The notes beneath the pieces were generated by a model, which was not told where the DNA came from, made no database searches, and worked only from the letters and a program-made list of their open reading frames with translations. Below, piece after piece: positions 16,654 through 29,733 of a stretch of 64,000 nucleotides of DNA; position 1 is the stretch's first letter; each line of letters opens with the position of its first letter. Position numbers and translations under genes: made by a program. Origin of the DNA: Candidatus Margulisiibacteriota bacterium (GTDB taxonomy: Bacteria; Margulisbacteria; WOR-1; O2-12-FULL-45-9; XYB2-FULL-48-7); assembly GCA_041658645.1 (NCBI GenBank), contig JBAZZV010000002.1, forward strand, positions 35,828 to 99,827, in the 5' to 3' direction.

Positions 16654-16686
16654 ATATCTATCGTGGTTTGGGGTCAAAAACTTGCA
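16654..16686 (-). promoter_or_regulatory. Sigma-28-like promoter motif: TGCAAGTTTTT-N12-CGATAGATAT, immediately upstream of the ATG (16647) of giant gene 2.
   Basis: Same bipartite motif. It argues for the 16647 start rather than TTG 16749. Confidence 0.5.
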
Positions 16687-16815
16687 TGGAGGGAGGCCTA
16701 TTTTTAGTGGGTATGAAGCCAAAAATATGATATTTTCGAATGCTATCAACCAGGGAGGATGGACGTCAGCTAATTAAGGCCTGTATTAATAAACCACGGA
16801 GGCTAGATTTTTACG

Positions 16816-18627
16816 TCAGCGGTTTAAGCCTAGTTCTCTGGCTCGCTTAAAACACCTTTCAGCTTCGTCTGCTTTTCCTTGCTTTTTAAATACATTCCCC
16901 TTACCATTCCAGGCATCGGCTTCATTAGGATTAATCTCTATGGCTTTATTATAAGCCATAATTGCTTCATCTAATTTCCCCTGGCCGGCAAAAACATCTC
17001 CTTTATGAAACCAGGCACGAGCAAGATTAGGATCAATGTCCAATGCTTTATTAAGAGCTTCAAGTGCTTCAGTTAATTTCCCTTGCTTTTTAAGCACAGC
17101 TCCTTTGTTGCCCCAGGCATTAGCATAATTAGGATTAATTTGTAATGCTCTATTGCAGGAGTCAAGTGCTTCAGACATTTTCCCTTGCTTATAAAGTGCA
17201 ACTCCTTTATTGCTCCAGGCATTAGCATTGTTGGGATTAATTTGCAATGCTTTATTGTAAGCTTCAAGCGCCTCATTTAATTTCCCTTGGTCAGCAAGCA
17301 CAGCACCTTTATTATTCCAGGCACTATCATTATTAGGATTAATTTGCAATGCTTTATTGTAAGCTTCAAGTGCTTCAGACATTTTTCCTTGTTTATAAAG
17401 CACAACTCCTTTACTATTCCAAACAACATCAAGATTAGGATTAATTATTAGGGCTTTATCGTAAGCCATAAGTGCTTCAGTTAATTTACCTTGATTTTCA
17501 AGCACAACTCCCTTATTGCTCCAAATAACCGCATCGTGAGGATTAATTTCCAAAGCCCTGTTGTAAGCCTCAAGCGCTTCAGTTAATTTCCCCTGTCTGG
17601 CAAGTACAGTTCCTTTACCTTGCCAAGCGATCGCATAATTAGGATTAATTTCTAAAGCTTTGTTGTAAGCTCCTAGTGCTTCATTTAAGTTCCCTTGATT
17701 ACGAAGCGCAGCTCCTTTATTGTTCCAGGCGACAGCATAATTTGGATTAATTTGCAGTGCTTTATTATAAGCTTCAAGTGCCTCATTTAATTTCCCTTGG
17801 CCATAAAGCACCTCTCCTTTACCGACCCAAGCAACAGCATAATTGGAATTAATCTCTAGAGCATTATCGTAGGCCGCAAGCGCCCCATCCAATCCCCCTT
17901 GTTTGTAAAGTACATCTCCAATATTCTTCCAGATGACAGGATCACCAGGATTGATTCCCCATGCCCGCTTATAAGCTTCAAGCGCTTTATCTAATTTTCC
18001 TTGTTTTTCAAACACCATTCCTTTACCGTTCCAGGCATTATCATTTTGGGGCCTAATTTGCAATTCCCTATTGTAGGCATCAAGCGCTTCATCTAATCTC
18101 CCTAAAGCATAAAGCACATCTCCCTTCCTTTGCCAGGGAGTAGGACTATCGGGAGAATTAAATTCCGGCCAAGGGGTAACAAAAAAAGGGTAAAGTTCCA
18201 ATGCTGTATTGTAAGCCGCAAGTGCTTCATCTAATCTCCCTAAAGCATGAAGCACATTTCCTTTATGCTCCCAAGCCATTGCATGATTGTCATTCCAGTT
18301 AGGATTATTTTTTAAGGCGTAAATTTTCAGCGCTCTATTATAAGCTTCAAGTGCTTCATCTAATTTCTCTTGTTTCTTAAGTACAACACCTATATTGCTC
18401 CAGATGTCAGGATCATCAGGATTGATCTTTAATGCCTGCTTATAAGCTTCAAGCGCCTCATTAAATTTCCCCTGCTGTGAAAGTGCATTACCTCTATTGT
18501 TCCAGGCATTAATACTGGGAGAGCACCCACTCCCAAGACTTAAAACTCCCAAAGAAAAAACTGCGGCTCGTGCGGCTGTGCGCACCTGTTTTGGCAACAT
18601 TCTTACTCCTAATATTCCTCGTATCAT
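16816..18627 (-). CDS. TPR-repeat lipoprotein (603 aa, about 15 consecutive 34-aa TPR units). It has a signal peptide with a lipobox.
   Basis: N-terminus: MIRGILGVRMLPKQVRTAARAAVFSLGVLSLGSGC (lipobox LGSGC). Repeated W-x-x-KG-x-x-L-x-x-QGK-x-x-EA-x-x-AYNKAL-x-INPN units. A GGAGG RBS lies 9 nt upstream. Confidence 0.85.
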   Translation of the reverse strand: MIRGILGVRMLPKQVRTAARAAVFSLGVLSLGSGCSPSINAWNNRGNALSQQGKFNEALEAYKQALKINPDDPDIWSNIGVVLKKQEKLDEALEAYNRALKIYALKNNPNWNDNHAMAWEHKGNVLHALGRLDEALAAYNTALELYPFFVTPWPEFNSPDSPTPWQRKGDVLYALGRLDEALDAYNRELQIRPQNDNAWNGKGMVFEKQGKLDKALEAYKRAWGINPGDPVIWKNIGDVLYKQGGLDGALAAYDNALEINSNYAVAWVGKGEVLYGQGKLNEALEAYNKALQINPNYAVAWNNKGAALRNQGNLNEALGAYNKALEINPNYAIAWQGKGTVLARQGKLTEALEAYNRALEINPHDAVIWSNKGVVLENQGKLTEALMAYDKALIINPNLDVVWNSKGVVLYKQGKMSEALEAYNKALQINPNNDSAWNNKGAVLADQGKLNEALEAYNKALQINPNNANAWSNKGVALYKQGKMSEALDSCNRALQINPNYANAWGNKGAVLKKQGKLTEALEALNKALDIDPNLARAWFHKGDVFAGQGKLDEAIMAYNKAIEINPNEADAWNGKGNVFKKQGKADEAERCFKRARELGLNR

Positions 18628-18644
18628 TTTATTTACCTCCCATT

Positions 18645-18676
18645 TTTTTATCGGTTACTGTCAGTTTCCTCGCACC
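18645..18676 (-). promoter_or_regulatory. Weaker variant of the same motif upstream of the TPR lipoprotein gene: TGCGAG...N...CCGATAAAAA.
   Basis: The -10 part (CCGATAAA) is good. The -35-like part is diverged. Confidence 0.35.
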
Positions 18677-18683
18677 TTTCATC

Positions 18684-18725
18684 GGTTTGGAAACCGTCCG
18701 CCTCAGGCGGACAGGTTTCCAAACC
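18684..18725. promoter_or_regulatory. 19-20-bp inverted repeat stem-loop (ggtttggaaaccgtccgcc-tca-ggcggacaggtttccaaacc) in the 338-bp non-coding gap between the gene block and the TPR gene.
   Basis: Read directly. There is one bulge and no U-tract, so it is not a canonical terminator. It abuts the TPR gene promoter. Confidence 0.5.
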
Positions 18726-18965
18726 CCTATTCAACTTTCTCTCACAAGTGATTATCATTGGCTTCTGTGGTAAATTTCACGTGATTTTTTTAAATGCGGG
18801 CAAATGGGGTTTGATTGGAAGAAAGCGGTAACGCTTATTCAAAAACTGGATCAGACCGTTTTTACCCTCCCGCTTGCTAACTCACCCCCAACTGTGGCTA
18901 TCAGGAAATCAGAGGATCAGCAAAAAGGATTTCAGGGTAACAGAAATCACACCTATTTTAACTAT

Positions 18966-19286
18966 CTATTTTTTTTCATCAACGTTCTGGCCCAAGCTGC
19001 CTGTGGGAGGGACAAAAGGCTTCCCCGTAGTTCCTGGAGCTGCTCCCTTTGCCGGAGGTTGATCTGTCCCCGGAGTCCCGCTTGGCTGTTTTGGAGGATT
19101 GGCCTCTAACGCCGGCAACGGCCCTTCCCCCGGTTTAGGAGCAAAATGACTGCCAATTGCCCCAGCTAACTGTCCCATGCCGGTGCGAATATCTTGTTGT
19201 GCGCCCGTAATATTCTGTCCCCTTGATTGCCCTGCCTGGGCTCTAAAATTCTTTCCGCCGGTATCACCTAAAGTCGTATAAAGCAT
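18966..19286 (-). CDS. Small Gly/Pro-rich hypothetical protein (106 aa).
   Basis: ORF with an AAGGAGATG RBS. It is part of the co-directional tightly spaced block. Composition is low-complexity, so confidence is moderate. Confidence 0.5.
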   Translation of the reverse strand: MLYTTLGDTGGKNFRAQAGQSRGQNITGAQQDIRTGMGQLAGAIGSHFAPKPGEGPLPALEANPPKQPSGTPGTDQPPAKGAAPGTTGKPFVPPTGSLGQNVDEKK

Positions 19287-19311: not shown

Positions 19312-19554
19312 TTACCCTTTGGGATTGGAAGGGGTGTATCTGTCTGGTTGGTCAGCCGGTTTTTCATCCGACTGTGTCGGTAGCATCCTGCCTTTCTCTT
19401 TCCCGCTAGCCTTGTTCCCAACATAACCGGCCAGCCGCTGGGCGGCTGGATCATCAAAAAACGCCGTAGTAAGTTGTTTACCAGGACCGGCCGCGGCCGG
19501 TGTCCACGAGCCGCCGATATAAGTATCTGTATTAATTCCTGCCGCGTATCCCAT
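19312..19554 (-). CDS. Small hypothetical protein (80 aa).
   Basis: ORF whose start overlaps the stop of the upstream gene by 1 nt (translational coupling). No recognisable domain. Confidence 0.45.
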   Translation of the reverse strand: MGYAAGINTDTYIGGSWTPAAAGPGKQLTTAFFDDPAAQRLAGYVGNKASGKEKGRMLPTQSDEKPADQPDRYTPSNPKG

Positions 19555-20543
19555 TACTTATTTGCCTCCTGCGGTACCTCTTGTTTAGGTGACTGGGTAA
19601 CGGTGTTGACTACCGGGGGCTGTTGTACCCCATCCGGAGCCGCCATTCCACCATTATTAATCGAGTGCGGCCAGAATCCACCCCTCATCACATAGCCATA
19701 ATCAAAAGTTCCGTATTGTTTTAACAGACTAAGTTGATTGTTATATCTCTCTAATGCATCTTTGCCTCTTTTTCCGGGTTTTCCTAATTCCTGAAGCATT
19801 TCATTGATCACTTCGGTTTTATCTTTGTCTTTACCCGGCTGGATTTTTGCGATCATCCTTGGAATCACAAAGATCGACATCAGCATTGCCCACTTTTGGT
19901 CCTTGGTTAGATTTTTATCCTCCTGAATTTCCTGCATCTTAGCGCTAATTTTATGATCATAATGATTACTGGACTCATTGCCATATTCTGTTTTGATCCA
20001 AATGCAAGCCTGCTCAAGGGTACCAAAAACTGATTTTCCAGCTTCAATTTGGTCAGCTGAACTGACATAGATAAATCCATGAGTATTATGAACATATTGA
20101 TTAAAAGCGTCGCTAAAGTTATCCACTCTGTTGGAGTAGCCGCTGTCCCGCTGGTGATTAAAAGCTATTTGAGTGTTATGCATCCGATTTATTGCTCTGT
20201 CAAGGTCCGTAACAAGACATTCCGCCGGGCCATCTTTCCTGCCAAGGACTACGGCTTGAAAATTATCTTCACTATCAAATTCGAAACCACGTAAACCATT
20301 CTTTTCCATAACTTTGTTCCAATATTTCATGGTAATTATGCCGCCAGGCGCATTTCTTAAGTCCCGATTGACCTGACCTGCTTTTTCCCGACTACAACCA
20401 AGCAAAGCGGCCATTTTTCGATCAGGATCATATATTGATCGTGTTGATTGGTCAGTACCAATCGGAGCAGTAATCTTCTCATTATTTTTAACCGGTACCG
20501 TTGTACCGTTAGCAGCTGACGCTGATGCTGGATTTACTGGCAT
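19554..20543 (-). CDS. Hypothetical protein (329 aa), member of the sigma-28-motif gene block.
   Basis: ORF overlapping the upstream gene by 35 nt. No signal peptide and no known motif. Confidence 0.6.
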   Translation of the reverse strand: MPVNPASASAANGTTVPVKNNEKITAPIGTDQSTRSIYDPDRKMAALLGCSREKAGQVNRDLRNAPGGIITMKYWNKVMEKNGLRGFEFDSEDNFQAVVLGRKDGPAECLVTDLDRAINRMHNTQIAFNHQRDSGYSNRVDNFSDAFNQYVHNTHGFIYVSSADQIEAGKSVFGTLEQACIWIKTEYGNESSNHYDHKISAKMQEIQEDKNLTKDQKWAMLMSIFVIPRMIAKIQPGKDKDKTEVINEMLQELGKPGKRGKDALERYNNQLSLLKQYGTFDYGYVMRGGFWPHSINNGGMAAPDGVQQPPVVNTVTQSPKQEVPQEANK

Positions 20544-21387
20544 TTCTTGTCCCTCCCCTAAAATTCATCGTCATGATCCCTGCGAGATCATGTTTAACAG
20601 CGCCCTCAACCTTATCCAGCCGAGCGGAGATCGAATCGAGATTTTGCGCCTGGCTGTTTAACTGGGAACCGGCGTCGTCGGAAGTAGAGCTGTCGCCGCC
20701 ACCGGCCGGTGCCAGGCTCTTCACCGTTGCTAACATCTGCCCCATCTCGACCGCCTTCCCCTCTACCTGCCCGATCTTCCTGTCCAGCTCACTGGTATCG
20801 AGTCCAAGACGTTCGGCGCCGGCTTTGATCGCTTTTAAGTCGCCAACGATCTGGCCGGTTTTCGCGATCGCTTGTTTCAGCCGGGCGCGCAGTTCGTTCT
20901 GTTTTTGCTCCACCCGGTGCTGAAGATATTTTTCATCCAACCGTTTCTCTTCTTTCTTGTGCTCAACCTCTTCTTTCCCGGCTTTGGTTGACGGCTTGCC
21001 CATCACCGCGTCGTTGATCCGGCGTTGGGCGGCTAAAATATCGTTTAACAGCTGTTCGGTCAAGGTCGACAGATCGCCCCGCGGAGCAAACTCACCGCTT
21101 AAAGCCGAGCTACCCTCACTCTCGTCGGTTTGCGTGGACTGGACCGCTGCCATATAGTTGCCGACCAGCTGGTCAAAGTCATCCTGGTCCATCTTGCCCT
21201 GCGCGTATTTGAGCAGGTCTTCTTCATTCATTTTATTGGGGTCTTTGGTCTCACCGACATAACTGGAAAGGAGGTCCCCTTTGCCCATCTTCAACAGCGC
21301 CTGCCCGGTCCGGCCCAAAAGCCGGAAGTTCGGGTTACTAAGATTCAGCTTAACGCTGACGTCTAATTGGACTGATACATCACCCAT
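20509..21387 (-). CDS. Hypothetical coiled-coil protein (292 aa).
   Basis: ORF preceded by a GGAGAA RBS and the sigma-28-like motif at 21405-21437. The central region is rich in charged heptads (EEVEHKKEEKRLDEKYLQHRVEQKQNELRARLKQ). Confidence 0.65.
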   Translation of the reverse strand: MGDVSVQLDVSVKLNLSNPNFRLLGRTGQALLKMGKGDLLSSYVGETKDPNKMNEEDLLKYAQGKMDQDDFDQLVGNYMAAVQSTQTDESEGSSALSGEFAPRGDLSTLTEQLLNDILAAQRRINDAVMGKPSTKAGKEEVEHKKEEKRLDEKYLQHRVEQKQNELRARLKQAIAKTGQIVGDLKAIKAGAERLGLDTSELDRKIGQVEGKAVEMGQMLATVKSLAPAGGGDSSTSDDAGSQLNSQAQNLDSISARLDKVEGAVKHDLAGIMTMNFRGGTRNASKSSISVSC

Positions 21388-21404: not shown

Positions 21405-21437
21405 ATATTATCGGAACTAACGGCTAAAAACTTGCAT
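21405..21437 (-). promoter_or_regulatory. Sigma-28-like promoter motif: TGCAAGTTTTT-N11-CCGATAATAT.
   Basis: Upstream of the 292-aa coiled-coil gene (start 21387). Confidence 0.55.
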
Positions 21438-23047
21438 TAATTTATCAGTTTCGTCTCACCCAGGATCCTCTGCATCAGCTTCTTGAGCAGGCCTTCTTTT
21501 TTGTCCAGGGCCGGATTCTTCCCATTGGTTTTCGCCTGTTTGACCTCAACTAGTTCCTTCCTGGCCAGGGAGAAGACCCGGGCGTTGGCTTGGTCGCGCA
21601 GGCGGACAAAATCGGCATCGGAAACCGGCAGGTCCAACCGTTTCAGGTTCTTCAGGAGTCCCTTGAGCCTAGTTTCCACCATCTGGTGGGCGGGGCCGGA
21701 AAGGTCATACAGAGTCGCTCTCTCCAACAGGGCTTCATTAAGCATCTCCACCGTCCGCTGTTTGGCCAGCTCCTGGGCTTCGCCTTTAATTTGCTCGTCC
21801 AGCTGGTCGGTAAAGATACCGAGGCGGAAGATGCCGTTTTTCAGCTTCCTGACCTTGAGCTCGGTCGAGATGGTTGTCAGCAGGTCGCCCTTGATCGCTC
21901 TCTGCATGTAGACCGCTCTCAAGCGATTGACCAGCAGTTCTTTCTCGTCTTTTTCGGTATACTCATAGGGGTTCTTCGGCGGCTGGCGCGACATGTCGCC
22001 CGCGTTGGTATTGACGTTATTGCCGGCCAGGCCGCCGGGCGGATCGAAATAGGTCAAGCCCAGATCGTTCTTTTCTTGCTTCCAGACCCGGTTTGTCCAG
22101 CCGGCAACATCCGCCCCCAGGTTTTCGGCCTTAACCGCGATCTTGGCGAGGGTGGAGAGGTCTTTTTTCCCTTCTTTCATGGTGACGCTGATCAGCTCTT
22201 TTTCCAGCTCCTGCATGAGAAAGTCCTTGATCTCCGCTTTGGCTTCTTTGCCGGCAAAGTCCGACGTCCCCTGGACGCCGTCGTGATAGCCGCCGAAATC
22301 CCAATTGCCTAATTTATCATTTTTAAAGACCTTGCTGGTATAAGCCCAAATCCCGATCTTAGCCGAAGCTTCCTCGACATTTCCTTCGGCCAAAGCGACC
22401 GCCACATACCGTTCCTTGATCCCGTCGGTGATCTGTTTTCTGATCTCATTCTTGATCTTAAGCTTGAGCGCAATGAGCTCTTTCTCCGGCACACCCTTTT
22501 CCAGTATTTTGTCCTTTAAGGTCTTTAATTTGGCGGCCAGGCCGGGATCGTTGCTGACCAAACTTTCTAGTAAAAGTGACGAATATTGCTGGACCAACCC
22601 TTTTAACTCACTGCCCGTGGAATAAGTTTTGACCCCCTGATTGCCGCTGTTCTCTCCTTCCTGCCGGCCTTTCTTTCCTTTATATTTTTCCACGCCGGTG
22701 ATCGCGTCTTCCAGCGCGCTTCTCGAGAGGGCGACCGTGTCCTCCCCTGTTTCGTCCTTGCCCAACATTCTGTCATATTCCTTATCCAGCTTGTTCAACA
22801 CCCCTTTGGTGGAAACGCCGGCTGACAGGCCGATGCTGGGCAATTTACCGAGGGTGTCAAGGATCATATCCATCTTGCCCTTTTTGTCGATCCCGCCGCC
22901 GCTCATGACCTTTTCCAAAATCTCTTTGGCCGTCCGCTTTGTTGCGGTCGTCTTGTCAAGGTTGTGCTTGGGAACTACCGCTTGGTTAAGGATCGCTCCT
23001 TCGTTCAGGGCGACGTTGATCTGCTGATTGTTGACCGTTTGGACCAT
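21437..23047 (-). CDS. Hypothetical protein (536 aa), Lys/Glu-rich, partly coiled-coil.
   Basis: Long ORF. Its start overlaps the stop of the 68-aa upstream gene by 1 nt. Confidence 0.65.
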   Translation of the reverse strand: MVQTVNNQQINVALNEGAILNQAVVPKHNLDKTTATKRTAKEILEKVMSGGGIDKKGKMDMILDTLGKLPSIGLSAGVSTKGVLNKLDKEYDRMLGKDETGEDTVALSRSALEDAITGVEKYKGKKGRQEGENSGNQGVKTYSTGSELKGLVQQYSSLLLESLVSNDPGLAAKLKTLKDKILEKGVPEKELIALKLKIKNEIRKQITDGIKERYVAVALAEGNVEEASAKIGIWAYTSKVFKNDKLGNWDFGGYHDGVQGTSDFAGKEAKAEIKDFLMQELEKELISVTMKEGKKDLSTLAKIAVKAENLGADVAGWTNRVWKQEKNDLGLTYFDPPGGLAGNNVNTNAGDMSRQPPKNPYEYTEKDEKELLVNRLRAVYMQRAIKGDLLTTISTELKVRKLKNGIFRLGIFTDQLDEQIKGEAQELAKQRTVEMLNEALLERATLYDLSGPAHQMVETRLKGLLKNLKRLDLPVSDADFVRLRDQANARVFSLARKELVEVKQAKTNGKNPALDKKEGLLKKLMQRILGETKLIN

Positions 23048-23947: not shown

Positions 23948-25031
23948 TTTTTTTCTCCAGGATATTTATCACCGACAGGACTTTTTGATCCGGCTGGGCC
24001 TTATAAGCCTGCCGGAAATTATCCAGAGCCTGCTCTTTATTGCCCAATTTCAGCCAGGCCATTCCCAGCAGGTAATAGGGATAATAATCATAAAGCCGGA
24101 CATTAAGGGGAGCGCAGTTGCCCCCTTTAAGCGGGAAATTGGCTATCGGCTTGAGAATTTCTACCGCCTCCAGCGGCTGATCAGCAGCCAGCAGCAGAGT
24201 TGCTTTTACCACTCTCGGCTCCGGATCAAAAGGATCACGCAGACAAGCGTCAGCGGCCACCTTCATGGCCTGGCCTGTTTGCTGGAGAAGGATAAAACAG
24301 CGCGCTAACTGACAGCGCGCTTTCGTCATGATCTCACCCTCCGGTAAAAACTGAATCGCTTGCTGATAGGTTTCAGCCGCCGGTTGAAATAAGTTTTTCC
24401 TGAAATAGGTATTGGCCAGCAGATAGGCGAATTGCGGATCGTCCGGTTTTTTGGCCAGCGCTTGCTCAAACATGGTCACGCTTCTTTCCAGTTTTTGCGC
24501 TTTTTTCTTCTCGTCCAGGGCGGCAAGGCCGCCCCAGTGATAAATATTAAAATCGATCTCTTTACGGGTGGCTTGTTCAGCAGTGTTCAGCTCTTCATTC
24601 ACCGGCCGGACAAAATGGAAACCCCTGCCGTTTCTGAATATTTTATCCCGTTTGTAAAAGACATCGCTTTTAGTTTCGCCTTTTTGGCATTCCCAGATCC
24701 GGCCGAAGATCAGGTCGGCTGGACCGTCCCGGAGAAACTCCCTTAGTTTTTGGAATTCCCGCGGGGTAACGTACTCATCGGCATCGAGCCAGAGGATATA
24801 TTGGCCGGCGGCGTGTTTTAAGCTCTCGTTGCGGGCGGCGGAAAAGTCATTGGTCCAGGGGAATTCGTAAAGCCCGGCCCCGGCCTCCCGGATGATCTCT
24901 TTGGTCCGATCGGTCGAGCCGGTATCAACAACGATAACCTCATCAGCCCCGGCCATGACCGAAGGCAAGGTTTTGAGGAGATTCTCCTCTTCGTTTTTGA
25001 CTATCATGCAGACAGAAAGTAGCTTTGCCAT
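23940..25031 (-). CDS. Family-2 glycosyltransferase with a C-terminal TPR domain (363 aa).
   Basis: N-terminus LSVCMIVKNEEENLLKTLPSV...VIVVDTGSTDRT...WLDADE is a GT-A/GT2 fold with a DxD motif. C-terminal TPR-like helices. The sigma-28-like motif lies at 25039-25070. Confidence 0.8.
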   Translation of the reverse strand: MAKLLSVCMIVKNEEENLLKTLPSVMAGADEVIVVDTGSTDRTKEIIREAGAGLYEFPWTNDFSAARNESLKHAAGQYILWLDADEYVTPREFQKLREFLRDGPADLIFGRIWECQKGETKSDVFYKRDKIFRNGRGFHFVRPVNEELNTAEQATRKEIDFNIYHWGGLAALDEKKKAQKLERSVTMFEQALAKKPDDPQFAYLLANTYFRKNLFQPAAETYQQAIQFLPEGEIMTKARCQLARCFILLQQTGQAMKVAADACLRDPFDPEPRVVKATLLLAADQPLEAVEILKPIANFPLKGGNCAPLNVRLYDYYPYYLLGMAWLKLGNKEQALDNFRQAYKAQPDQKVLSVINILEKKND

Positions 25032-25038
25032 ACCTACT

Positions 25039-25070
25039 AATATATCGGGTTAAATGGACAATAACTTGCA
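25039..25070 (-). promoter_or_regulatory. Sigma-28-like promoter motif: TGCAAGTTATT-N11-CCGATATATT.
   Basis: Upstream of the GT2-TPR gene (start 25031). Confidence 0.55.
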
Positions 25071-25106: not shown

Positions 25107-25292
25107 TTACTCGTCTCCTTTATTCCTCTTGCTGGCTGACTTGGCGGCTGTTTCCACATGCTGTTTGAAGAAATTGGCCATCATTGATTGCTGAAACTTA
25201 GCCAAGGCGGCCTTAGGGTCAAGGTTCTTGCCCCAATCGCCATTATTCAACTTATCGATATTCGCGTTAAGCGGTCCTTCGACTGCGGCCAT
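25107..25292 (-). CDS. Small hypothetical protein (61 aa).
   Basis: Short ORF with a strong RBS (GAGAGGTGAG) and its own sigma-28-like motif at 25311-25343. Confidence 0.5.
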   Translation of the reverse strand: MAAVEGPLNANIDKLNNGDWGKNLDPKAALAKFQQSMMANFFKQHVETAAKSASKRNKGDE

Positions 25293-25310: not shown

Positions 25311-25343
25311 TTTAATATCGTAACCAGAAAGAAAATACTTGCG
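25311..25343 (-). promoter_or_regulatory. Sigma-28-like promoter motif: CGCAAGTATTTT-N11-CGATATTAA.
   Basis: Upstream of the 61-aa gene (start 25292). Confidence 0.5.
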
Positions 25344-25346: not shown

Positions 25347-27425
25347 TCACTTTTTATTTTTCTGCCTTAGCGTTTTGAGATTGTCCGACCGGGCGGCGGC
25401 CGTTTTTTCAACCGCGACCTTCTGCTGTTTGGCCTTTTCGGACGCGGCCTTGGCTTCGCCCGTTTTAGCTCTTGCTCTGGCCGCGCTTTTCGCTTCGGCA
25501 ACAGCCGTTTCCCATTTATCATCCCGAACTTTTTCCTTTTCCTTTTTATAATCTTCGGTTTTTCGCTCATGTCCGTTCCGATTAAATTTATTTATTTGAC
25601 TTATCTGTATCGTATAATCAAGATAAGCCATGGCTTTGTTAAGCAAATTACTGTAAGCCCGGAAATTGTAGGAATTATTATAAAGATTAACCGTGCCCAG
25701 GTCCTCGTTATTCTGCCACAAGTGGGCGGTCGAGTTTCGGCTCAGATTGAAATAGTTCAGACCGACAAACAGACCGCGGGCGCTCCCCCTGACATTCGCC
25801 ACCTGAACATTATACCAAAGCAGATCACTGCCGCCTTCAATAACCGGCAAATCGGTCCAGCTGCCCCCCCCGTCCCAACCTTCGACATTCAACATCCAGT
25901 TCTGCAGATCAGCACCGGGTGAACCCAGCCAAGCTCTATCCTGAAAGTTATAGCCTTCAGAAGAGATAGGATACATGGAAATACCTTCTGATTCGCCTAC
26001 TTTTTTAGGATAATAAACGTTATTCTCTTCCAGGTGGCCGTAAAACTCCGCTTTTAGACTGGTTACCACATGTTTTTTATAGTCATCGTCACTTTTAAAT
26101 CCATTCAAATATCCAGATAGACCACTAACGGCATCTTTAACCGATATATTTCCCTGCTTTAAATCGTCTATAATTTTAGTAATATTGGCCGTTTTGATCT
26201 TGAGGCCGCCCAGCGCATTTAAGACCTGCTCCACGCTGGTCGCGCTGGCCAGGGCATTTTTGGTGCCGGCAAAACTTCCGTTAAATACCCAGCTATTATC
26301 AAACTGGGCAAAAACACTGTCAATCCAGGCTTTATACTTAGTAAATGGAGCTTGCGGATCGCCCCAACCGCCGCCTTTGAAGGGATCAAAGTCGCCATTC
26401 CATCCTCTCCCGGCCGAAAGCGCGCCGATCCATTGCCCGGCGGTATCCCACAGTTCATAGTATTCAGTGAAAAGAAATTGATTAAGCTGGCCCGATTCCT
26501 GCCCCCGCCAGTCGGTCGGCTTATTATCCGACCAGGAAGCTATTTTTTTCATTTTATCAGCGTCAGTCAGCTCGTCAAGGGCACCGTAGGAGAGGGCATT
26601 CTGCGTTACACCATACCCAAAATCATAGCTCTTAGCTTGCGGCCGGTGACTGCCAAAAAGGTCAGTCATGGCGTAAGCGATCCGTCTTTTTGATTCGATC
26701 AGCCCGAGTATCCAGGCGATCCCCTGCTCCGGTCCTGGATTATTACTATTTTGTTTAAAGTTTTCATATACAAATTCATAATAGTTGCGGTTGACATTCA
26801 AACCGGCTTTTTTTTCCTTAAAAAGGGTTGAATAGTCCGGCACATAGCCAAGCTCCGCTCCGGCCGTCCCGGAACCGGTGCGTTTATAGACATAGCTCAT
26901 ATCGTCAAATTCATACGCGTCGATCGCTTCATCTATACTTCCGAGACTGCCATCGGTATACTGGACCTGATTAAATTCATCGTATATCTTGGGGGATTTG
27001 GCATTGCCCACATAATTAAAGTGCTGGAAATCCGAGGCGCCAAAATAATAATCAAGACCGGGAGTTTGTTTTTCTTTATTTATTGTTTTCTCCCCCCAAA
27101 ATTCCAAAGGAACACCGGGCTCTAACTGATCGTTTATCCCGTTGCCATTCGAGTCAGACATAGAAAAACGCAGCTTCATGTGATGCGTGGCGCCGGGTTC
27201 ATCAAGCGTCCCGGCAAGATCCTCACCGCTGATCTTGGAAATTATTCTCTGCGGGGGTAAAAACTTCATCATTTCCTGGAGAAAGTTTACGCGGGAAAAA
27301 AGCCAGCGGCGGCCGCGCACGGTCGTCTCGTTGCCCCAGACCCCTTCTTCGCCAAACGTCCCGTCAACGGGAACGTTGGGGATATAAGGAGCCGGCGCGG
27401 GGGTCATTACATCAAAATCGGTCAT
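25347..27425 (-). CDS. Large hypothetical protein (692 aa) with a Lys/Ala/Glu-rich basic C-terminal tail.
   Basis: Long ORF with an AAAGGCAGG RBS. No signal peptide and no recognisable catalytic motif. The C-terminal about 90 aa are highly charged (KEKEKVRDDKWETAVAEAKSAARARAKTGEAKAASEKAKQQK). Confidence 0.7.
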   Translation of the reverse strand: MTDFDVMTPAPAPYIPNVPVDGTFGEEGVWGNETTVRGRRWLFSRVNFLQEMMKFLPPQRIISKISGEDLAGTLDEPGATHHMKLRFSMSDSNGNGINDQLEPGVPLEFWGEKTINKEKQTPGLDYYFGASDFQHFNYVGNAKSPKIYDEFNQVQYTDGSLGSIDEAIDAYEFDDMSYVYKRTGSGTAGAELGYVPDYSTLFKEKKAGLNVNRNYYEFVYENFKQNSNNPGPEQGIAWILGLIESKRRIAYAMTDLFGSHRPQAKSYDFGYGVTQNALSYGALDELTDADKMKKIASWSDNKPTDWRGQESGQLNQFLFTEYYELWDTAGQWIGALSAGRGWNGDFDPFKGGGWGDPQAPFTKYKAWIDSVFAQFDNSWVFNGSFAGTKNALASATSVEQVLNALGGLKIKTANITKIIDDLKQGNISVKDAVSGLSGYLNGFKSDDDYKKHVVTSLKAEFYGHLEENNVYYPKKVGESEGISMYPISSEGYNFQDRAWLGSPGADLQNWMLNVEGWDGGGSWTDLPVIEGGSDLLWYNVQVANVRGSARGLFVGLNYFNLSRNSTAHLWQNNEDLGTVNLYNNSYNFRAYSNLLNKAMAYLDYTIQISQINKFNRNGHERKTEDYKKEKEKVRDDKWETAVAEAKSAARARAKTGEAKAASEKAKQQKVAVEKTAAARSDNLKTLRQKNKK

Positions 27426-27447: not shown

Positions 27448-27801
27448 TTAACCGCCGGCCATCATTTTGGCGGCCGTTTCGTCATAACTTAGCCGCTTCT
27501 GGAACAAACCCATGGTCATATTGTACTGGTTTTCCAATTGGGAGGTCGCGTAGTTGATCGCCATCAGGCCGCCGGAAGAGGTCTTGTCAACTTCGCCCAG
27601 GCCAAAGACGCTTAAGTCGACAATTTTAATTTCAGAATTTGACGTCTCCAGCGTGATCTTATTCAGTTTTTTGAAAATGATCCGCAGGAACTCTTTGGTA
27701 TCAGCGGCAGAGACCTGGCCGCCCGAGCGCACGCTGTTCTGGGCGGCAAAAACCGACCCGGCTGATTGATTGTTGACCGATTTATCCATTTTTCCCTCCA
27801 T
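27448..27801 (-). CDS. Small protein, paralog B of a pair (117 aa; the start is possibly at 27789). It ends in ...KMMAGG.
   Basis: It shares the core K-[ST]-[AS]-GGL-[FM]-A-[VI]-x-x-x-x-S-x-x-E-[RN]-Q with the upstream 98-aa gene. A GGAGGG RBS is present. The hairpin at 27829-27850 lies immediately upstream. Confidence 0.6.
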   Translation of the reverse strand: MEGKMDKSVNNQSAGSVFAAQNSVRSGGQVSAADTKEFLRIIFKKLNKITLETSNSEIKIVDLSVFGLGEVDKTSSGGLMAINYATSQLENQYNMTMGLFQKRLSYDETAAKMMAGG

Positions 27802-27850: not shown

Positions 27851-27859
27851 ATAAACCTT

Positions 27860-28156
27860 TTAACCACCCTGGGTTCTCTTATAATCGACGGCCGCTCCCT
27901 TTGTAAGCTCAATTCCCTTTTTCGGAGCCGCGGCTGAAATTGTTTGGGCTCTTTCGTTAAGACTAACTTCCTGGGTAACCGCGAACAATCCACCGGCGGA
28001 TTTCACGTCAACGTCATCCAGCTTCATTTGCGTCAGATGAACCTCACCCCCGTCAACCGATGATTTAGCAATCTGCACGGTGAGCTCGTTTAATTGATTC
28101 CCAAGCTCGGTTAACGCCGTATAAGATTTCTGCAATCCTTCAAGTTCTGTTGCCAT
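27860..28156 (-). CDS. Small protein, paralog A of the pair (98 aa). It ends in ...KRTQGG and is the candidate major structural subunit.
   Basis: AGGAGGTGAAAAGGT RBS. It is followed by an 8-9 bp GC hairpin plus a T-rich tract, which is attenuator-like. It is paralogous to the downstream 117-aa protein. Confidence 0.65.
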   Translation of the reverse strand: MATELEGLQKSYTALTELGNQLNELTVQIAKSSVDGGEVHLTQMKLDDVDVKSAGGLFAVTQEVSLNERAQTISAAAPKKGIELTKGAAVDYKRTQGG

Positions 28157-28189
28157 ACCTTTTCACCTCCTTTTTGCCATACTGTCGAA

Positions 28190-28405
28190 TCAAACCAGCT
28201 GGTTGATCGAACTGCCTGAACCAGCCGGCGGAATTGCCTCTTTGGAAACCGGGCCCGCATCCGTAACTTCCGCGATCTTGAGATCGAGACCGCTCTCTTC
28301 AAATCTCGCCTTAACGAGGCCCTTTAGATCGGAGAGGAGATCAGTAATTTGCCCTGAATTCGCCTGACTATTAAGATTTAAATTACCGATCGTTGAATTG
28401 CCCAT
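28190..28405 (-). CDS. Small hypothetical protein (71 aa).
   Basis: GGGAGCGG RBS. The sigma-28-like motif lies at 28420-28452 directly upstream. Confidence 0.5.
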   Translation of the reverse strand: MGNSTIGNLNLNSQANSGQITDLLSDLKGLVKARFEESGLDLKIAEVTDAGPVSKEAIPPAGSGSSINQLV

Positions 28406-28419
28406 TGTCCGCTCCCACT

Positions 28420-28452
28420 ATACTTATCGTACTCCGAAAGACAAAACTTGCA
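28420..28452 (-). promoter_or_regulatory. Sigma-28-like promoter motif: TGCAAGTTTT-N13-CGATAAGTAT.
   Basis: Upstream of the 71-aa gene and the paralog A gene. Confidence 0.55.
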
Positions 28453-28734
28453 TTAATCTTCTTTCAGCTTTTTCTCGACTTGAGAGATCTTTTTCAGTAT
28501 CTCGTCGAGGCCTTCATCTTGCGCGGCCAAGCCGGTAAAAAAATCAGCGAACAGTTTTTTGTCGGACATGGCGCCGGCAAAGGTCTCCGTCCCGCGGGTC
28601 ACCTGGTCGGCCCGGAAATTCTCGATCAGATTGCGCACAAAAGAGAGGGAAGCCGGTTGATTGCTGGGGGCGTTATCCAGCGTCTTAGGGCTCATTTGCC
28701 TGAACATAGAAGCTGAAATGCCGTCTAATAACAT
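28453..28734 (-). CDS. Small hypothetical protein (93 aa).
   Basis: ORF 12 nt downstream of the OMP gene with a GGAAAGGA RBS. Confidence 0.5.
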   Translation of the reverse strand: MLLDGISASMFRQMSPKTLDNAPSNQPASLSFVRNLIENFRADQVTRGTETFAGAMSDKKLFADFFTGLAAQDEGLDEILKKISQVEKKLKED

Positions 28735-28746
28735 GTTATCCTTTCC

Positions 28747-29694
28747 TTATTCCGGTAAAACCGAGGCCGTTTTCGGCTCGTTTTGGGCGATCGCTTTCCC
28801 AACAACTGTTGGGTTGGATTCGGTTTTTGGCGTGATGGAAACCGACCAGTAATGGACCGGCTCGGCTTTGTCAAGATAAGCGTAATCGACGCCAAACCCG
28901 CCGAGATTGATCCCCAGCCCGGCGGTCGAGCAATCGAGGCCGCGGCCGGCGCGGATCGCCAGCCCCCGGACCGGCTGCCATTCACAGCCAAGCTCTGTCC
29001 CCTCTACCACCCAGGTCACGCTGTTGCCGAAGATCTTGCCGGAAGCGCCAAGCAAGACCGCGCTTTTCCGCTCTTCGACGGTGGTCAGGTTGGGGATGTC
29101 TTTTAAGCCATCCCCGCTGAAGAAGTTCTGCAACGAGAGGCCGAGCGAGAGGTCGCTGTTCGGCTTGAAAACGGTCGCCAGGTCGAGGTCGATGTTCGAG
29201 CCGCCATCCTGGGACAACCCTTTGGCAGTCCCGAGCTTGCGGCTGGAAAACTTGACGTTGGCGCCAACAGAAAGAACACCCATATTGTCGGAGACCTTGA
29301 TCTCTTTATTTAACTCCCTGGCCAGGCTGACGTACAAGGTCTGGGTGGAATATCTGGTCAGGGCCTCGCCATCCCAGCCGATCAGGCTGGCCGCGCTGAT
29401 GATCGGGTCGGTCGAGCCGACATAGCCGATACCGATAGCGCCGAGCGGAGTGTTCTCGACCCCGCCGATCAGCGTATATTCGCGACCCTCCGATAAGCGG
29501 GTAGAAACGAGGACCGCCTCGCTCTGGACCTGGTAGATGCCGGCCGGGTTAATGAAGATGGCATTGGCATCGTCCGCCAGGCCGGCGAAAGCGCCCCCCA
29601 TCCCCATCGGACGGGCTCCCAGATTTTCCTGGGCAAGAGCGGGCACGGCTAACATTATGATGATGGCCAGCAGGGCAAAAGTTTGTTTGCTCAT
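28747..29694 (-). CDS. Outer-membrane beta-barrel protein, PorV/PorQ/FadL-like (315 aa), with a signal peptide.
   Basis: Signal peptide MSKQTFALLAIIIMLAVPALAQ. The N-terminal motif ARPMGMGGAFAGLADDANAIFINPAG is characteristic of the PorV/FadL-like barrel family. Amphipathic beta-strands alternate to the C-terminus. Confidence 0.7.
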   Translation of the reverse strand: MSKQTFALLAIIIMLAVPALAQENLGARPMGMGGAFAGLADDANAIFINPAGIYQVQSEAVLVSTRLSEGREYTLIGGVENTPLGAIGIGYVGSTDPIISAASLIGWDGEALTRYSTQTLYVSLARELNKEIKVSDNMGVLSVGANVKFSSRKLGTAKGLSQDGGSNIDLDLATVFKPNSDLSLGLSLQNFFSGDGLKDIPNLTTVEERKSAVLLGASGKIFGNSVTWVVEGTELGCEWQPVRGLAIRAGRGLDCSTAGLGINLGGFGVDYAYLDKAEPVHYWSVSITPKTESNPTVVGKAIAQNEPKTASVLPE

Positions 29695-29703
29695 TCCACT
29701 TGT

Positions 29704-29733
29704 TTAATCGGGGCGAAGAGGGGAAAACTTGCG
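29704..29733 (-). promoter_or_regulatory. Sigma-28 (FliA/SigD)-like promoter motif upstream of the OMP gene: CGCAAGTTTT-N12-CCCGATTAA.
   Basis: One of seven instances of a bipartite motif with fixed spacing. It lies 10-35 nt upstream of the ATG. Confidence 0.5.

What the first reader, a model, noticed from the sequence alone, without database searches (positions are those of the whole stretch)
16654..29733. Recurrent sigma-28 (FliA/SigD/WhiG)-type promoter motif tying a 13-kb gene block, a TPR lipoprotein and a giant gene into one regulon
I found seven instances of the same bipartite element (coding-strand consensus TGCAAGTTTT - 11 to 13 nt - CCGATAWWT), each sitting 10-45 nt upstream of a start codon. 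The start codons are 29694, 28405, 25292, 25031, 21387, 18627 (weaker) and 16647. The -10 half (CCGATAA / CGATAT) and the AAGTTT part of the -35 half match the well-known class-III flagellar sigma-28 consensus TAAAGTTT-N11-GCCGATAA (B. subtilis SigD: TAAA-N15-GCCGATAT). Spacing is conserved to within 1-2 nt. No flagellar, chemotaxis or pilus gene is present in the window, and all driven genes are uncharacterised. By analogy with Chlamydia sigma-28 late genes and Streptomyces WhiG, this suggests an alternative-sigma-controlled developmental or surface programme that includes the giant protein.
Basis: partly seen in the sequence, partly recalled or inferred. Interest (0 to 1): 0.85.

Follow-up and report, generated by a model that had tools for sequence, protein, structure and literature searches.

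The report
Sigma-28-type promoters driving orphan gene block
Six copies of a two-part promoter signal in an uncultivated Margulisbacteria/Saganbacteria genome are real, are conserved across that phylum, and most likely belong to a shortened flagellar-type (sigma-28) sigma factor that switches on a set of lineage-specific proteins of unknown function, including a giant one.

Summary
The motif is real. Six sites share one geometry, GCAAGTWWT-N13-CGATW. All lie on the minus strand, 11-23 nt before a start codon, against 0 expected by chance. The seventh site (TPR gene) fails.

The window comes from a Candidatus Margulisiibacteriota (WOR-1/Saganbacteria-like) MAG. Orthologous loci whose 692-aa proteins are 40-66% identical keep both boxes at the same intergenic positions while the spacers diverge. 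Scans of genome and metagenome collections recovered about 240 sites, heavily enriched in this phylum (extended consensus ATGCAAGTTTT-N13-CGATAATATA).

In related genomes the same element, overlapped by a TTGAC-N17-TAnAnT promoter, heads a flagellar export operon (fliK to flhA). In some of these genomes the operon ends with a 197-205-aa sigma factor. That sigma's best matches are FliA/WhiG, and it lacks region 3. The exact pattern also precedes chemoreceptor genes in a Deltaproteobacterium and a Lysinibacillus. Housekeeping genes in the window use TGnTATAAT boxes instead.

So the sigma-28 reading is supported, but as part of a flagellar hierarchy rather than a flagellum-free programme. The driven genes are orphans: a PorV-like barrel, a GT2-TPR enzyme, many small proteins and a giant protein with a hydrophobic hairpin. 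The sigma gene was not found on the window's own genome. Nothing has been tested experimentally.

The parts
29706..29732 (-). Promoter site 1 (GCAAGTTTT-N13-CGATT), 11 nt before the ATG at 29694
   Evidence: The orthologous site is kept in L005.
28425..28451 (-). Promoter site 2 (GCAAGTTTT-N13-CGATA), 19 nt before the ATG at 28405
   Evidence: Orthologous sites in L005, L007 and L008.
25316..25342 (-). Promoter site 3 (GCAAGTATT-N13-CGATA), 23 nt before the ATG at 25292
   Evidence: Orthologous sites before the 57-70-aa gene in L005, L007 and L008.
25043..25069 (-). Promoter site 4 (GCAAGTTAT-N13-CGATA), 11 nt before the ATG at 25031
   Evidence: The orthologous site is in L005. In L007 and L008, which lack the GT2-TPR gene, the site precedes the 239-245-aa gene.
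21409..21435 (-). Promoter site 5 (GCAAGTTTT-N13-CGATA, best PWM score 32.1), 21 nt before the ATG at 21387
   Evidence: Orthologous sites in L005/L119 and L008.
16659..16685 (-). Promoter site 6 (GCAAGTTTT-N13-CGATA), 11 nt before the ATG at 16647 of the giant gene
   Evidence: Orthologous site before the giant gene in L119.
28747..29694 (-). 315-aa protein with a signal peptide, a PorV/PorQ-like outer-membrane barrel. The first gene after site 1.
   Evidence: NCBIfam NF033709 PorV_fam E=5e-11, below the curated cut-off. The family recurs after the motif in 6 loci.
28453..28734 (-). 93-aa orphan protein
   Evidence: No Pfam or NCBIfam match. Orthologues in L005, L007 and L008.
28190..28405 (-). 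71-aa orphan protein
27860..28156 (-). 98-aa orphan protein, followed by a terminator-like hairpin at 27850-27829
27448..27789 (-). 113-aa orphan protein. It shares a K(T/S)S.GGL(F/M)A motif with the 98-aa protein.
   Evidence: A homologue follows the motif in WOR-1 locus L074.
25347..27425 (-). 692-aa orphan protein, rich in aromatic residues, with a coiled-coil C-terminus
   Evidence: Only 4 close and about 10 remote relatives among 1.84 billion representatives. No PDB or Pfam match. The AlphaFold model was unusable, pLDDT 38.5.
25107..25292 (-). 61-aa orphan protein with its own promoter
23940..25031 (-). 363-aa family 2 glycosyltransferase with a C-terminal TPR domain
   Evidence: Pfam Glycos_transf_2 E=8e-28 plus TPR matches
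23231..23947 (-). 238-aa orphan protein
23047..23244 (-). 65-aa orphan protein
21437..23047 (-). 536-aa orphan coiled-coil protein
   Evidence: The family recurs after the motif in 7 loci, e.g. L086. No PDB match.
20509..21387 (-). 292-aa orphan protein, after the strongest site
19554..20543 (-). 329-aa orphan protein
19312..19554 (-). 80-aa orphan protein
18966..19286 (-). 106-aa orphan Pro/Gly-rich protein. The last gene of the unit that starts at site 5.
10654..16647 (-). 1997-aa giant protein. No signal peptide, a proline-rich stretch, coiled coils, and a central hydrophobic hairpin at residues 830-873.
   Evidence: No Pfam match. Sequence features. It is the largest family among motif-driven genes, 12 members.
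18644..18676 (-). It has only CCGATAA and I do not accept it as a site.
16816..18627 (-). 603-aa TPR protein, judged not part of the conserved regulon. It is a 40% GC insertion preceded by a strong hairpin at 18727-18684.

Best explanation
The six elements are promoters read by RNA polymerase carrying a clade-specific alternative sigma factor of the sigma-28 (FliA/SigD/WhiG) family. GCAAGTTTT is the -35 element and CGATAA(TA) is the -10 element, held exactly 13 nt apart.

Transcription would start a few bases after CGATAA. That gives leaderless or very short-leader mRNAs for three units (11 nt to the ATG) and short Shine-Dalgarno leaders for the other three.

In relatives the candidate sigma is a 197-205-aa protein with regions 2 and 4 but no region 3. 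In some genomes it is encoded at the end of the flagellar type III export operon fliK to flhA. That operon carries an interleaved housekeeping-type promoter and a weaker copy of the motif. This arrangement would give a hierarchy like the Bacillus subtilis fla/che-sigD arrangement. The housekeeping promoter makes the export apparatus and the sigma factor. The sigma factor then turns on a 'late' set of genes.

In this lineage the late set is dominated by lineage-specific proteins:
- a PorV-like outer-membrane barrel;
- a GT2-TPR glycosyltransferase;
- many 60-130-aa proteins without signal peptides;
- a giant protein with a hydrophobic hairpin.

Shown: the motif, its conservation, its phylum restriction, its link to flagellar genes, and the existence and family affinity of the sigma factor. 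Inferred: that this sigma reads the motif, the position of the transcription start, the order of the hierarchy, and any function of the driven genes.
For: (1) Six identical-geometry sites against 0 expected by chance. All are intergenic and point the same way as the next gene.

(2) Phylogenetic footprint. In L005, L007 and L008 (692-aa protein 66, 47 and 40% identical in the search) both boxes are kept at the same intergenic positions while the spacers differ.

(3) Phylum restriction. Of 120 genome hits to YGCAAGTTTT-N13-CGATAAT, at least 37 are named Margulisiibacteriota, WOR-1 or Saganbacteria. About 14 more are unnamed MAGs that I grouped with them. Extra sites cluster in those stretches. 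82% of 238 sites fall in the 11% of DNA not covered by ORFs of 100 aa or more.

(4) Link to flagellar genes. The motif lies 17 nt before fliK-flgG/E-like-fliM-fliN-fliO-fliP-fliQ in L020, and before the same fliK in L029. Weaker copies sit at the same place in L132, L133 and L267.

(5) The sigma factor. The 197-205-aa protein follows flhA in L132 and L133.
- Its best NCBIfam match is TIGR02479 FliA_WhiG.
- A profile of 12 members hits FliA (9wsf 2.8e-12, 6pmi 3e-10), WhiG (7lq4) and Aquifex FliA (1rp3). No ECF sigma appears below E=0.01.
- 344 homologues were found. The best 120 listed are 76-94% identical to the query, and those that carry an organism name are Margulis, Sagan or WOR-1.

(6) Same-genome co-occurrence, judged from record names and titles.
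- WOR-1 RIFOXYB2_FULL_48_7 has the sigma (P0186) and motif loci L010 and L074.
- Saganbacteria CG08_land_8_20_14_0_20_45_16 has the sigma (P0229), FliP (P0092) and motif locus L042.

(7) The exact pattern precedes methyl-accepting chemotaxis genes in a Deltaproteobacterium (L073) and a Lysinibacillus (L102).

(8) It closely resembles the E. coli FliA promoters of tar, flgK and flgM, whose FliA binding was mapped by ChIP-seq (PMC4183435).

(9) Housekeeping genes in the window use TGnTATAAT boxes and never the motif.
Against: - The sigma gene was not found on the window's own genome. The flagellar and sigma loci I recovered come from other assemblies. The closest in composition are L133/L134, with tetranucleotide r about 0.9.
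- The sigma scores far below the curated FliA_WhiG cut-off (71 against 189.6 bits), lacks region 3, and NCBI names it only 'sigma-70 family'.
- The -35 begins GC rather than TA, and the AAGTTT-to-CGATAA distance is 14 nt against 13 in E. coli.
- Near about 240 sites (1.1 Mb) no flagellin, FlgK/L, FliD/S, FlgM, MotAB or Che gene was detected with E. coli queries. The fliK operon and one flagellar cluster in L241 (taxon unknown) were the only flagellar genes found.
- There are no transcript or binding data.
Confidence: 0.72

Rival explanations
1. The motif is the promoter of an extracytoplasmic-function (group 4, ECF) sigma factor that has nothing to do with flagella. Its likeness to sigma-28 sites is superficial.
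For: From my own knowledge, ECF promoters also have a -35 ending in AAC followed by a T tract, a 16-17 nt gap and a CG-initiated -10 (B. subtilis SigM/SigW/SigX types). TGCAAGTTTT-N13-CGATA is one base away from such a -35. The candidate sigma has the two-domain, ECF-like size and passes the general TIGR02937 'sigma70-ECF' superfamily model, 66 bits against a cut-off of 42.9. The regulon is rich in envelope and surface proteins.
Against: - The -10 is CGATAA, as in FliA sites, not CGT.
- The -35 has G where ECF sites have the conserved C.
- The sigma profile hits only FliA, WhiG, SigF and RpoS in the PDB, with no ECF below E=0.01.
- The motif heads a flagellar operon, and the sigma gene sits inside it.
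- The same pattern precedes chemoreceptor genes in other phyla.
- No sigma or anti-sigma pair lies next to any of about 240 sites.
Confidence: 0.08
2. A sigma-28-like factor drives a programme that is functionally independent of motility. The flagellar-type export apparatus, or none at all, serves a surface or secretion programme, and the block has nothing to do with a flagellum.
For: No flagellin, hook-associated, cap, stator or chemotaxis gene was found near about 240 motif sites in this clade. The driven proteins are orphans, mostly without signal peptides. The giant family has a central hydrophobic hairpin. In some genomes the sigma gene is not next to flagellar genes (L139, L141).
Against: The only recognisable conserved operon under the motif is flagellar: fliK, a rod/hook protein, the C-ring and the export gate. 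Published surveys report flagellins and the flagellar protein FlgV in Margulisbacteria (PMC7018530; PMC11607428). My sample is centred on strong motif matches and could miss flagellin genes that have weaker sites.
Confidence: 0.15
3. The two boxes are the binding site of a transcription factor (activator or repressor), and the real promoter lies elsewhere.
For: Conserved bipartite DNA elements upstream of co-regulated genes can be operator sites.
Against: - The halves are not palindromic or directly repeated.
- The element has one fixed orientation relative to the gene and a -35/-10-like 13-nt gap.
- It ends only 11-23 nt before the start codon, which leaves no room for a separate promoter downstream.
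- No TATAAT-type box accompanies most sites.
Confidence: 0.03
4. The motif is the generic housekeeping promoter of this phylum, or a compositional artefact.
For: GATAAT inside CGATAAT resembles TATAAT.
Against: Shuffles give 0 expected matches. There is no site among the 34 kb of housekeeping genes in the window, which carry TGnTATAAT boxes. The GCAAGT box does not resemble TTGACA. At the fliK operon a separate TTGAC-N17-TAnAnT promoter is interleaved with the motif, so the two signals are distinct.
Confidence: 0.02

Closest known systems
Class 3 (FliA, sigma-28) promoters of Escherichia coli and Salmonella, consensus TAAAGTTT-N11-GCCGATAA
   Same: The -10 core CGATAA and the AAGTTT part of the -35 are shared. 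The layout is bipartite and asymmetric. The promoter serves genes expressed after the flagellar export apparatus. Direct comparison with the tar, flgK and flgM promoters is, and ChIP-seq-mapped sites are in PMC4183435.
   Different: The first two -35 bases are GC, not TA. The AAGTTT-to-CGATAA distance is 14 nt, not 13. An extended A/T-rich tail (CGATAATATA) follows the -10. The driven genes are orphans rather than flagellin, chemotaxis or stator genes.
Bacillus subtilis SigD and the fla/che operon (sigD near the end of a long flagellar operon with both a SigA and a SigD promoter; my own knowledge)
   Same: In L132 and L133 the sigma gene sits at the end of the fliK-to-flhA export operon. That operon has interleaved TTGAC-N17-TAnAnT and sigma-28-type signals. 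The exact motif precedes a chemoreceptor gene in a Lysinibacillus.
   Different: The sigma is about 50 residues shorter and has no region 3. In other genomes of the clade the sigma gene lies elsewhere. No FlgM homologue was recognised.
Non-flagellar sigma-28 regulons: Chlamydia sigma-28 late genes and Streptomyces WhiG
   Same: A FliA/WhiG-family sigma drives genes that are not recognisable flagellar components. WhiG (7lq4) is among the best structural-database matches of the sigma.
   Different: Those organisms have no flagellar genes. This clade has a flagellar type III export operon under the same motif.
Sigma-28-dependent non-flagellar genes co-expressed with flagella, e.g. the Campylobacter jejuni Fed and Cia proteins (my own knowledge, not checked here)
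   Same: A flagellar sigma factor also controls proteins unrelated to flagellar structure, some of them exported through the flagellar apparatus.
   Different: Here the non-flagellar, orphan set is the bulk of what was sampled (about 220 distinct proteins). Export through the apparatus is pure conjecture.
ECF (group 4) sigma promoters such as B. subtilis SigM/SigW/SigX (my own knowledge)
   Same: TG.AA. followed by a T tract at -35, a CG-initiated -10, and a two-domain sigma without region 3.
   Different: G replaces the conserved C of AAC, and the -10 is CGATAA rather than CGT. The sigma's sequence affinity is to FliA/WhiG, not to ECF sigmas.

Membership tests
Sigma-28 (FliA/SigD/WhiG)-dependent promoter class | -10 element with the core CGATAA (GCCGATAA in E. 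coli) | tested here: met
   CGAT(A/T) is present in all 6 window sites. CGATAA(TA) is the consensus of about 240 clade sites. It is identical to the core in the E. coli tar, flgK and flgM promoters.
Sigma-28 (FliA/SigD/WhiG)-dependent promoter class | -35 element TAAAGTTT | tested here: inconclusive
   AAGTTT is shared, but the two 5' bases are invariably GC instead of TA. E. coli flgK has CTCAAGTCC, a natural intermediate.
Sigma-28 (FliA/SigD/WhiG)-dependent promoter class | Spacing of 11 nt between TAAAGTTT and GCCGATAA (13 nt from AAGTTT to CGATAA) | tested here: not met
   The spacing here is an invariant 14 nt from AAGTTT to CGATAA, 1 nt longer, in every site.
Sigma-28 (FliA/SigD/WhiG)-dependent promoter class | The organism encodes a sigma-28-family sigma factor | tested here: inconclusive
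   This is met for the clade. A 197-205-aa FliA/WhiG-like sigma is found in Margulis, Sagan and WOR-1 genomes, including genomes that also hold motif sites. It was not found on the window's own genome, because only fragments of that genome could be reached.
Sigma-28 (FliA/SigD/WhiG)-dependent promoter class | Drives flagellar or chemotaxis genes | tested here: inconclusive
   The motif heads the fliK-flgG-like-fliMNOPQ operon, and MCP genes in two other phyla. No flagellin, FlgKL, FliDS, FlgM, MotAB or Che gene was seen near about 240 clade sites.
Sigma-28 (FliA/SigD/WhiG)-dependent promoter class | Transcription starts 6-9 nt downstream of the -10 and depends on the sigma factor | not testable with these tools
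   No transcriptome or biochemistry was available.
FliA/WhiG sigma factor family (for the 197-205-aa sigma of relatives) | Regions 2 and 4 most similar to FliA/WhiG among sigma families | tested here: met
   The top NCBIfam models are all FliA, WhiG or sigma-28. The top PDB hits are FliA 9wsf and 6pmi, WhiG 7lq4 and FliA 1rp3. E. coli FliA matches by BLAST/phmmer at 2e-7 to 3e-8, while RpoE shows no significant match.
FliA/WhiG sigma factor family (for the 197-205-aa sigma of relatives) | Scores above the curated family cut-off (TIGR02479, 189.6 bits) | tested here: not met
   71.1 bits. NCBI annotates it only as 'sigma-70 family'.
FliA/WhiG sigma factor family (for the 197-205-aa sigma of relatives) | Three-domain architecture with region 3 | tested here: not met
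   Region 2 aligns to FliA 29-101 and region 4 to FliA 191-248. Only about 32 residues lie between them, against about 90 in FliA.
FliA/WhiG sigma factor family (for the 197-205-aa sigma of relatives) | Encoded with flagellar genes and partnered by an anti-sigma factor FlgM | tested here: inconclusive
   The gene follows flhA in L132, L133 and L134 but lies elsewhere in L139 and L141 and is absent from L267. Small ORFs of about 53-87 aa precede it in every locus seen. The 70-aa and 80/87-aa types recur in more than one genome but give no FlgM match.
ECF sigma promoter class | -35 with conserved AAC and -10 with CGT | tested here: not met
   AAG and CGA are invariant in the sites.
Housekeeping sigma-70 promoter | TTGACA-N17-TATAAT, found before housekeeping genes | tested here: not met
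   The motif is absent from housekeeping genes, which carry TGnTATAAT. At fliK a separate TTGAC-N17-TAnAnT promoter is interleaved with the motif.

The most novel reading that the evidence does not exclude
In Margulisbacteria/Saganbacteria the flagellar-type type III export apparatus and its shortened sigma-28 may run a secretion programme rather than, or in addition to, building a filament. Under this reading the many small proteins without signal peptides are export substrates or chaperones. The giant proteins with a central hydrophobic hairpin are translocon- or effector-like proteins used on neighbouring cells. The PorV-like barrel and the GT2-TPR enzyme serve their passage or modification. 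The absence of flagellin, hook-associated, cap, stator and chemotaxis genes near about 240 promoters is compatible with this reading. Nothing here shows export.
Probability: 0.15. Interest if true: 0.8.

Novelty: new variant of a known kind. Interest (0 to 1): 0.5.

Why it matters
Margulisbacteria and Saganbacteria are uncultivated sister lineages of the Cyanobacteria, and I found no work on their gene regulation. A sharply defined, phylum-wide promoter with a plausible cognate sigma factor gives a sequence-only way to list a whole co-regulated gene set in hundreds of MAGs.

It assigns dozens of orphan and giant genes to one expression programme tied to the flagellar export apparatus. It also points to a natural sigma-28 without region 3 that reads a promoter with a 1-nt longer spacer, which is of interest for how sigma domains set promoter geometry.

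The kind of element is well known, so the surprise lies in the regulon content and the sigma architecture, not in the mechanism.

Tried and rejected
- **Prophage or phage late-promoter idea.** Dropped. The flanks are ordinary chromosomal genes (secA, prfB, tpiA, pdxJ, ispF) and the block is syntenic in four genomes.
- **Block proteins as disguised flagellar late proteins** (FlgK, FliD, flagellin, FliS, FlgM). I found no support. Pfam and NCBIfam, scanned for most block ORFs, gave no flagellar match. Ortholog profiles against PDB sequences for three families gave nothing. phmmer with E. coli flagellar proteins gave nothing. Remote homology below these methods is not excluded.
- **AlphaFold2 of the 692-aa protein** with its 4-sequence alignment failed (mean pLDDT 38.5), so no fold search was run. 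An exhaustive HMMER search found only about 15 relatives, and the eight remote ones I scanned had no significant Pfam domain.
- **Finding the sigma or FliP gene of the window's own genome.** I tried sample identity, NCBI accession neighbourhood and tetranucleotide similarity, without success. L132 shares a sample with the window but has 40% GC and is a different organism. L133/L134, L139 and L267 are relatives, not the same genome.
- **Extending the window to the left** failed because the 2817-aa product is not on record. The right extension showed only housekeeping genes.
- **L117 (Sericytochromatia) and L181.** The sigma-like genes near pattern hits there are not the 197-205-aa FliA-like sigma (L181 is RpoD-like; L117 was not followed up). 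I treated them as chance hits.
- **Literature searches** found no description of flagella, sigma factors or promoters in Margulis/Saganbacteria beyond passing mentions.

Full report
**1. The observation**

On the minus strand the window holds six sites with one fixed geometry, GCAAGTWWT-N13-CGATW. They lie at 29732-29706, 28451-28425, 25342-25316, 25069-25043, 21435-21409 and 16685-16659.

- There is no other match on either strand of the 64 kb. 100 dinucleotide-preserving shuffles gave none.
- Each site ends 11-23 nt before an ATG that opens a real ORF of 315, 71, 61, 363, 292 or 1997 aa.
- Three sites have exactly 11 nt between CGATW and the ATG. If transcription starts a few bases after the -10 box, as it does for sigma-28 elsewhere, these mRNAs are leaderless or nearly so. 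The other three have 19-23 nt with a purine-rich ribosome-binding stretch.

It has no GCAAGT box at the right distance and falls below the PWM threshold. The TPR gene has 40% GC against 51-53% around it. It is preceded by a strong hairpin at 18727-18684 and is missing from the orthologous locus L119, where the giant gene follows the small genes directly. I treat it as a species-specific insertion, not a regulon member.

**2. Whose genome this is**

The right half of the window carries ordinary chromosomal genes: secA, prfB, tpiA, fba, two pfk, leuA-like, pdxJ, ispF and a polysaccharide cluster. The 692-aa block protein is annotated at NCBI as a hypothetical protein of a Candidatus Margulisiibacteriota MAG. 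Its only close relatives are from Margulisbacteria, the WOR-1 bacterium DG_54_3 and one unnamed assembly.

**3. Conservation**

Three orthologous loci were fetched: L005, L007 and L008. Their 692-aa proteins are 66, 47 and 40% identical to the window's in the search. They keep the gene order ~95 / ~70 / ~100 / ~113 / ~680 / ~65 / (GT2-TPR) / ~240 / ~65 / ~535 / ~280 / ~300 aa.

In all three the boxes YGCAAGTTTT and CGATA(A/T) stand at the same intergenic positions, exactly 13 nt apart, while the spacer sequences differ. This is a phylogenetic footprint of a functional bipartite element.

**4. Distribution**

- By my own arithmetic, chance expectation for the whole collection is about 140.
- At least 37 rows are named Margulisiibacteriota, WOR-1, Marinamargulisbacteria or Saganbacteria.
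- About 14 more are unnamed MAGs that I grouped with them by the look of their downstream proteins and further motif sites.
- This phylum had only 37 species representatives in GTDB r95 (PMC8382752).

A PWM built from 21 sites finds further, non-ascertained sites in those stretches. The extended consensus is ATGCAAGTTTT-N13-CGATAATATA. A metagenome scan with the stricter consensus gave another 120 loci.

Over 1.1 Mb, 82% of 238 sites fall in the 11% of DNA not covered by ORFs of 100 aa or more.

In the window the housekeeping genes carry TGnTATAAT boxes, often directly before the ATG, and never the motif. So the element is not a generic promoter or a compositional effect.

**5. The link to flagella and to sigma-28**

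Among 74 genes downstream of the motif, one matched the FliK hook-length domain. In locus L020 the motif lies 17 nt before fliK. It is followed by an FlgG/FlgE-like rod/hook gene and then fliM, fliN, fliO, fliP and fliQ. L029, a named Margulisiibacteriota MAG, has the same fliK N-terminus after the motif.

FliP homologues at 72% identity or more are abundant. Those that carry an organism name are Margulis, Sagan or WOR-1. Three further loci show the same conserved operon: L132 (40% GC), L133/L134 (53-55% GC) and L267. The order is tRNA, promoter, fliK, flgG-like, fliM, fliN, fliO, fliP, fliQ, fliR, flhB, flhA.

In L132 and L133 the operon continues with a 70-87-aa ORF and then a sigma factor of 197-205 aa.

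- Its best family matches are all FliA/WhiG/sigma-28 models, although at 71 bits it is far below the curated cut-off of 189.6.
- A 12-member profile hits FliA, WhiG and Aquifex FliA in the PDB, and no ECF sigma below E=0.01.
- Regions 2 and 4 align to FliA 29-101 and 191-248. Only about 32 residues lie between them, so region 3 is missing.
- 344 homologues were found. The best 120 listed are 76-94% identical to the query.

Judged from record names and titles, two named genomes hold both the sigma factor and motif sites: WOR-1 RIFOXYB2_FULL_48_7 and Saganbacteria CG08_land_8_20_14_0_20_45_16. The second also holds FliP.

Outside the phylum, the exact pattern lies directly before methyl-accepting chemotaxis genes in a Deltaproteobacterium (L073) and a Lysinibacillus (L102). 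These are classical sigma-28/SigD targets.

Side by side with the E. coli tar, flgK and flgM promoters (ChIP-seq-mapped in PMC4183435), the -10 core CGATAA and the AAGTTT of the -35 are the same. The first two -35 bases differ (GC for TA), and the gap is 1 nt longer.

**6. The fliK promoter is double**

In five genomes a TTGAC(A/G/T)-N17-TA(A/T/G)(A/G)(C/A)T signal is interleaved with the motif. Where the housekeeping-type boxes are good, the sigma-28-type boxes are weaker, for example GCAAGCTTT…CGACT in L133.

This resembles the dual SigA/SigD control of the B. subtilis fla/che operon that carries sigD (my own knowledge). It suggests a feed-forward hierarchy: the housekeeping promoter gives the export apparatus and the sigma, and the sigma then gives the late genes.

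**7. What the regulon encodes**

From about 240 sites I collected 223 distinct first downstream proteins.

- Of the 176 complete ORFs, about half are 130 aa or shorter and 16 are 700 aa or longer.
- 122 are singletons at BLAST E<1e-4.
- The largest family (12 members) is that of the window's 1997-aa giant. Next come several families of small proteins, the 536-aa family (7 members) and the PorV-like barrel (6 members).
- Pfam recognises little: TPR, GT2, LysM, Ig-like and beta-propeller domains, and one Rrf2 regulator.
- The small proteins I examined lack signal peptides and begin with polar S/N/Q/G-rich stretches.
- The giant protein has a proline-rich segment, coiled coils and a hydrophobic hairpin at residues 830-873.

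Sequence profiles against PDB chains, an exhaustive HMMER search and an AlphaFold attempt gave no functional lead.

With E. coli queries, no flagellin, FlgK/L, FliD/S, FlgM/N, MotA/B, FliF/G or Che protein was detected near any clade site. The fliK operon and one flagellar cluster in L241 (taxon unknown) were the only flagellar genes found. Published surveys do list flagellins and FlgV in Margulisbacteria, so canonical filament genes may lie elsewhere or carry weaker sites.

**8. Limits**

- I could not reach the rest of the window's own genome. The flagellar and sigma loci come from relatives, the closest in composition being L133/L134 with tetranucleotide r about 0.9.
- That the FliA-like sigma reads the motif is inferred from promoter likeness, co-occurrence and the flagellar operon. 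It has not been shown.
- Transcription starts are inferred.
- Gene starts downstream of the sites in other loci were called mechanically.

**9. Verdict**

The sigma-28-type reading is the best-supported explanation (about 0.7). An ECF-type sigma (about 0.1) and an operator site (below 0.05) are the remaining alternatives for the element itself.

The TPR gene does not belong.

The element is a new variant of a known kind. What is new is the phylum, the region-3-less sigma with a 1-nt longer promoter spacing, and a regulon made almost wholly of orphan and giant proteins.

Noticed in passing
L267:6572-6663, L133:6585-6677, L132:6508-6600, L020:3207-3299, L029 (minus strand, upstream of the cut fliK): The fliK operon promoter is double. 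A TTGAC(A/G/T)-N17-TAnAnT housekeeping-type promoter is interleaved base by base with the GCAAG...CGA(T/C) motif. In four of the five loci it lies directly after a tRNA-like sequence. Where the housekeeping boxes are good, the sigma-28-type boxes are weaker.
   Followed up: partly
L132:15295-15912, L133:15524-16117, L139:10001-10594: The FliA/WhiG-like sigma factor of this clade has only 197-205 residues and no region 3. The best 120 listed homologues are 76-94% identical to the query, across genomes whose GC ranges from 40 to 60%. NCBI labels it only 'sigma-70 family'.
   Followed up: yes
L139:9553-10004, L133:15074-15337, L132:15077-15289, L141:1723-1884: Small ORFs of about 53-87 aa precede the sigma gene in every locus seen. 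The 70-aa and 80/87-aa types recur in more than one genome. They have no family match and are candidates for an anti-sigma factor or another partner.
   Followed up: partly
window 61-8514 (+): A second giant ORF of 2817 aa with no Pfam match. It has Gly/Ala-rich hydrophobic segments around residues 2280-2440 and no BLAST similarity to the 1997-aa giant. Its upstream region is cut by the window edge, so a motif there could not be checked.
   Followed up: partly
window 8662-10587: A radical SAM/SPASM enzyme (299 aa, + strand) and a class I methyltransferase (328 aa, - strand) sit between the two giant genes. This region has 42% GC, lower than its neighbours.
   Followed up: no
window 16816-18727: The 603-aa protein with 16 TPR repeats has 40% GC and is preceded by a 44-nt near-perfect hairpin. 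It is absent from the orthologous locus L119 and looks like a recent insertion between the small-gene unit and the giant gene.
   Followed up: yes
window 57668-57745, 60120-60151, 8630-8662, 34288-34349, 10587-10625: Housekeeping genes have extended -10 boxes (TGnTATAAT) only 4-10 nt before the start codon. Leaderless or near-leaderless mRNAs therefore seem common in this organism, not only in the motif-driven genes.
   Followed up: partly
L139:1-9339 (minus strand): Next to the sigma gene in one relative there is an array of eight similar-sized genes (364-507 aa) with no Pfam match. Only the 507-aa product was read: it is Gly-rich and has a signal peptide. No motif site occurs in that 20 kb.
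   Followed up: no
L073:7332-7361 (-) and L102:879-908 (+): The exact Margulis-type pattern precedes methyl-accepting chemotaxis protein genes in a Deltaproteobacterium MAG and a Lysinibacillus isolate. These are probably genuine sigma-28/SigD promoters in those bacteria.
   Followed up: partly
L241:7508-7538 and 8794-14716: A metagenome contig of unknown taxon has the motif about 1.2 kb upstream of a flagellar cluster (flhB-like, flgF, flgG, flgA, flgH, flgI and a full-length FliA).
   Followed up: no
window 34349-36769 (+) and L007:1-2648: A conserved 806-890-aa protein with Glucodextran_B, Big_13 and FlgD-type Ig domains lies next to the block in several genomes. It has no motif and gave a spurious weak hit to E. 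coli FlgD.
   Followed up: no
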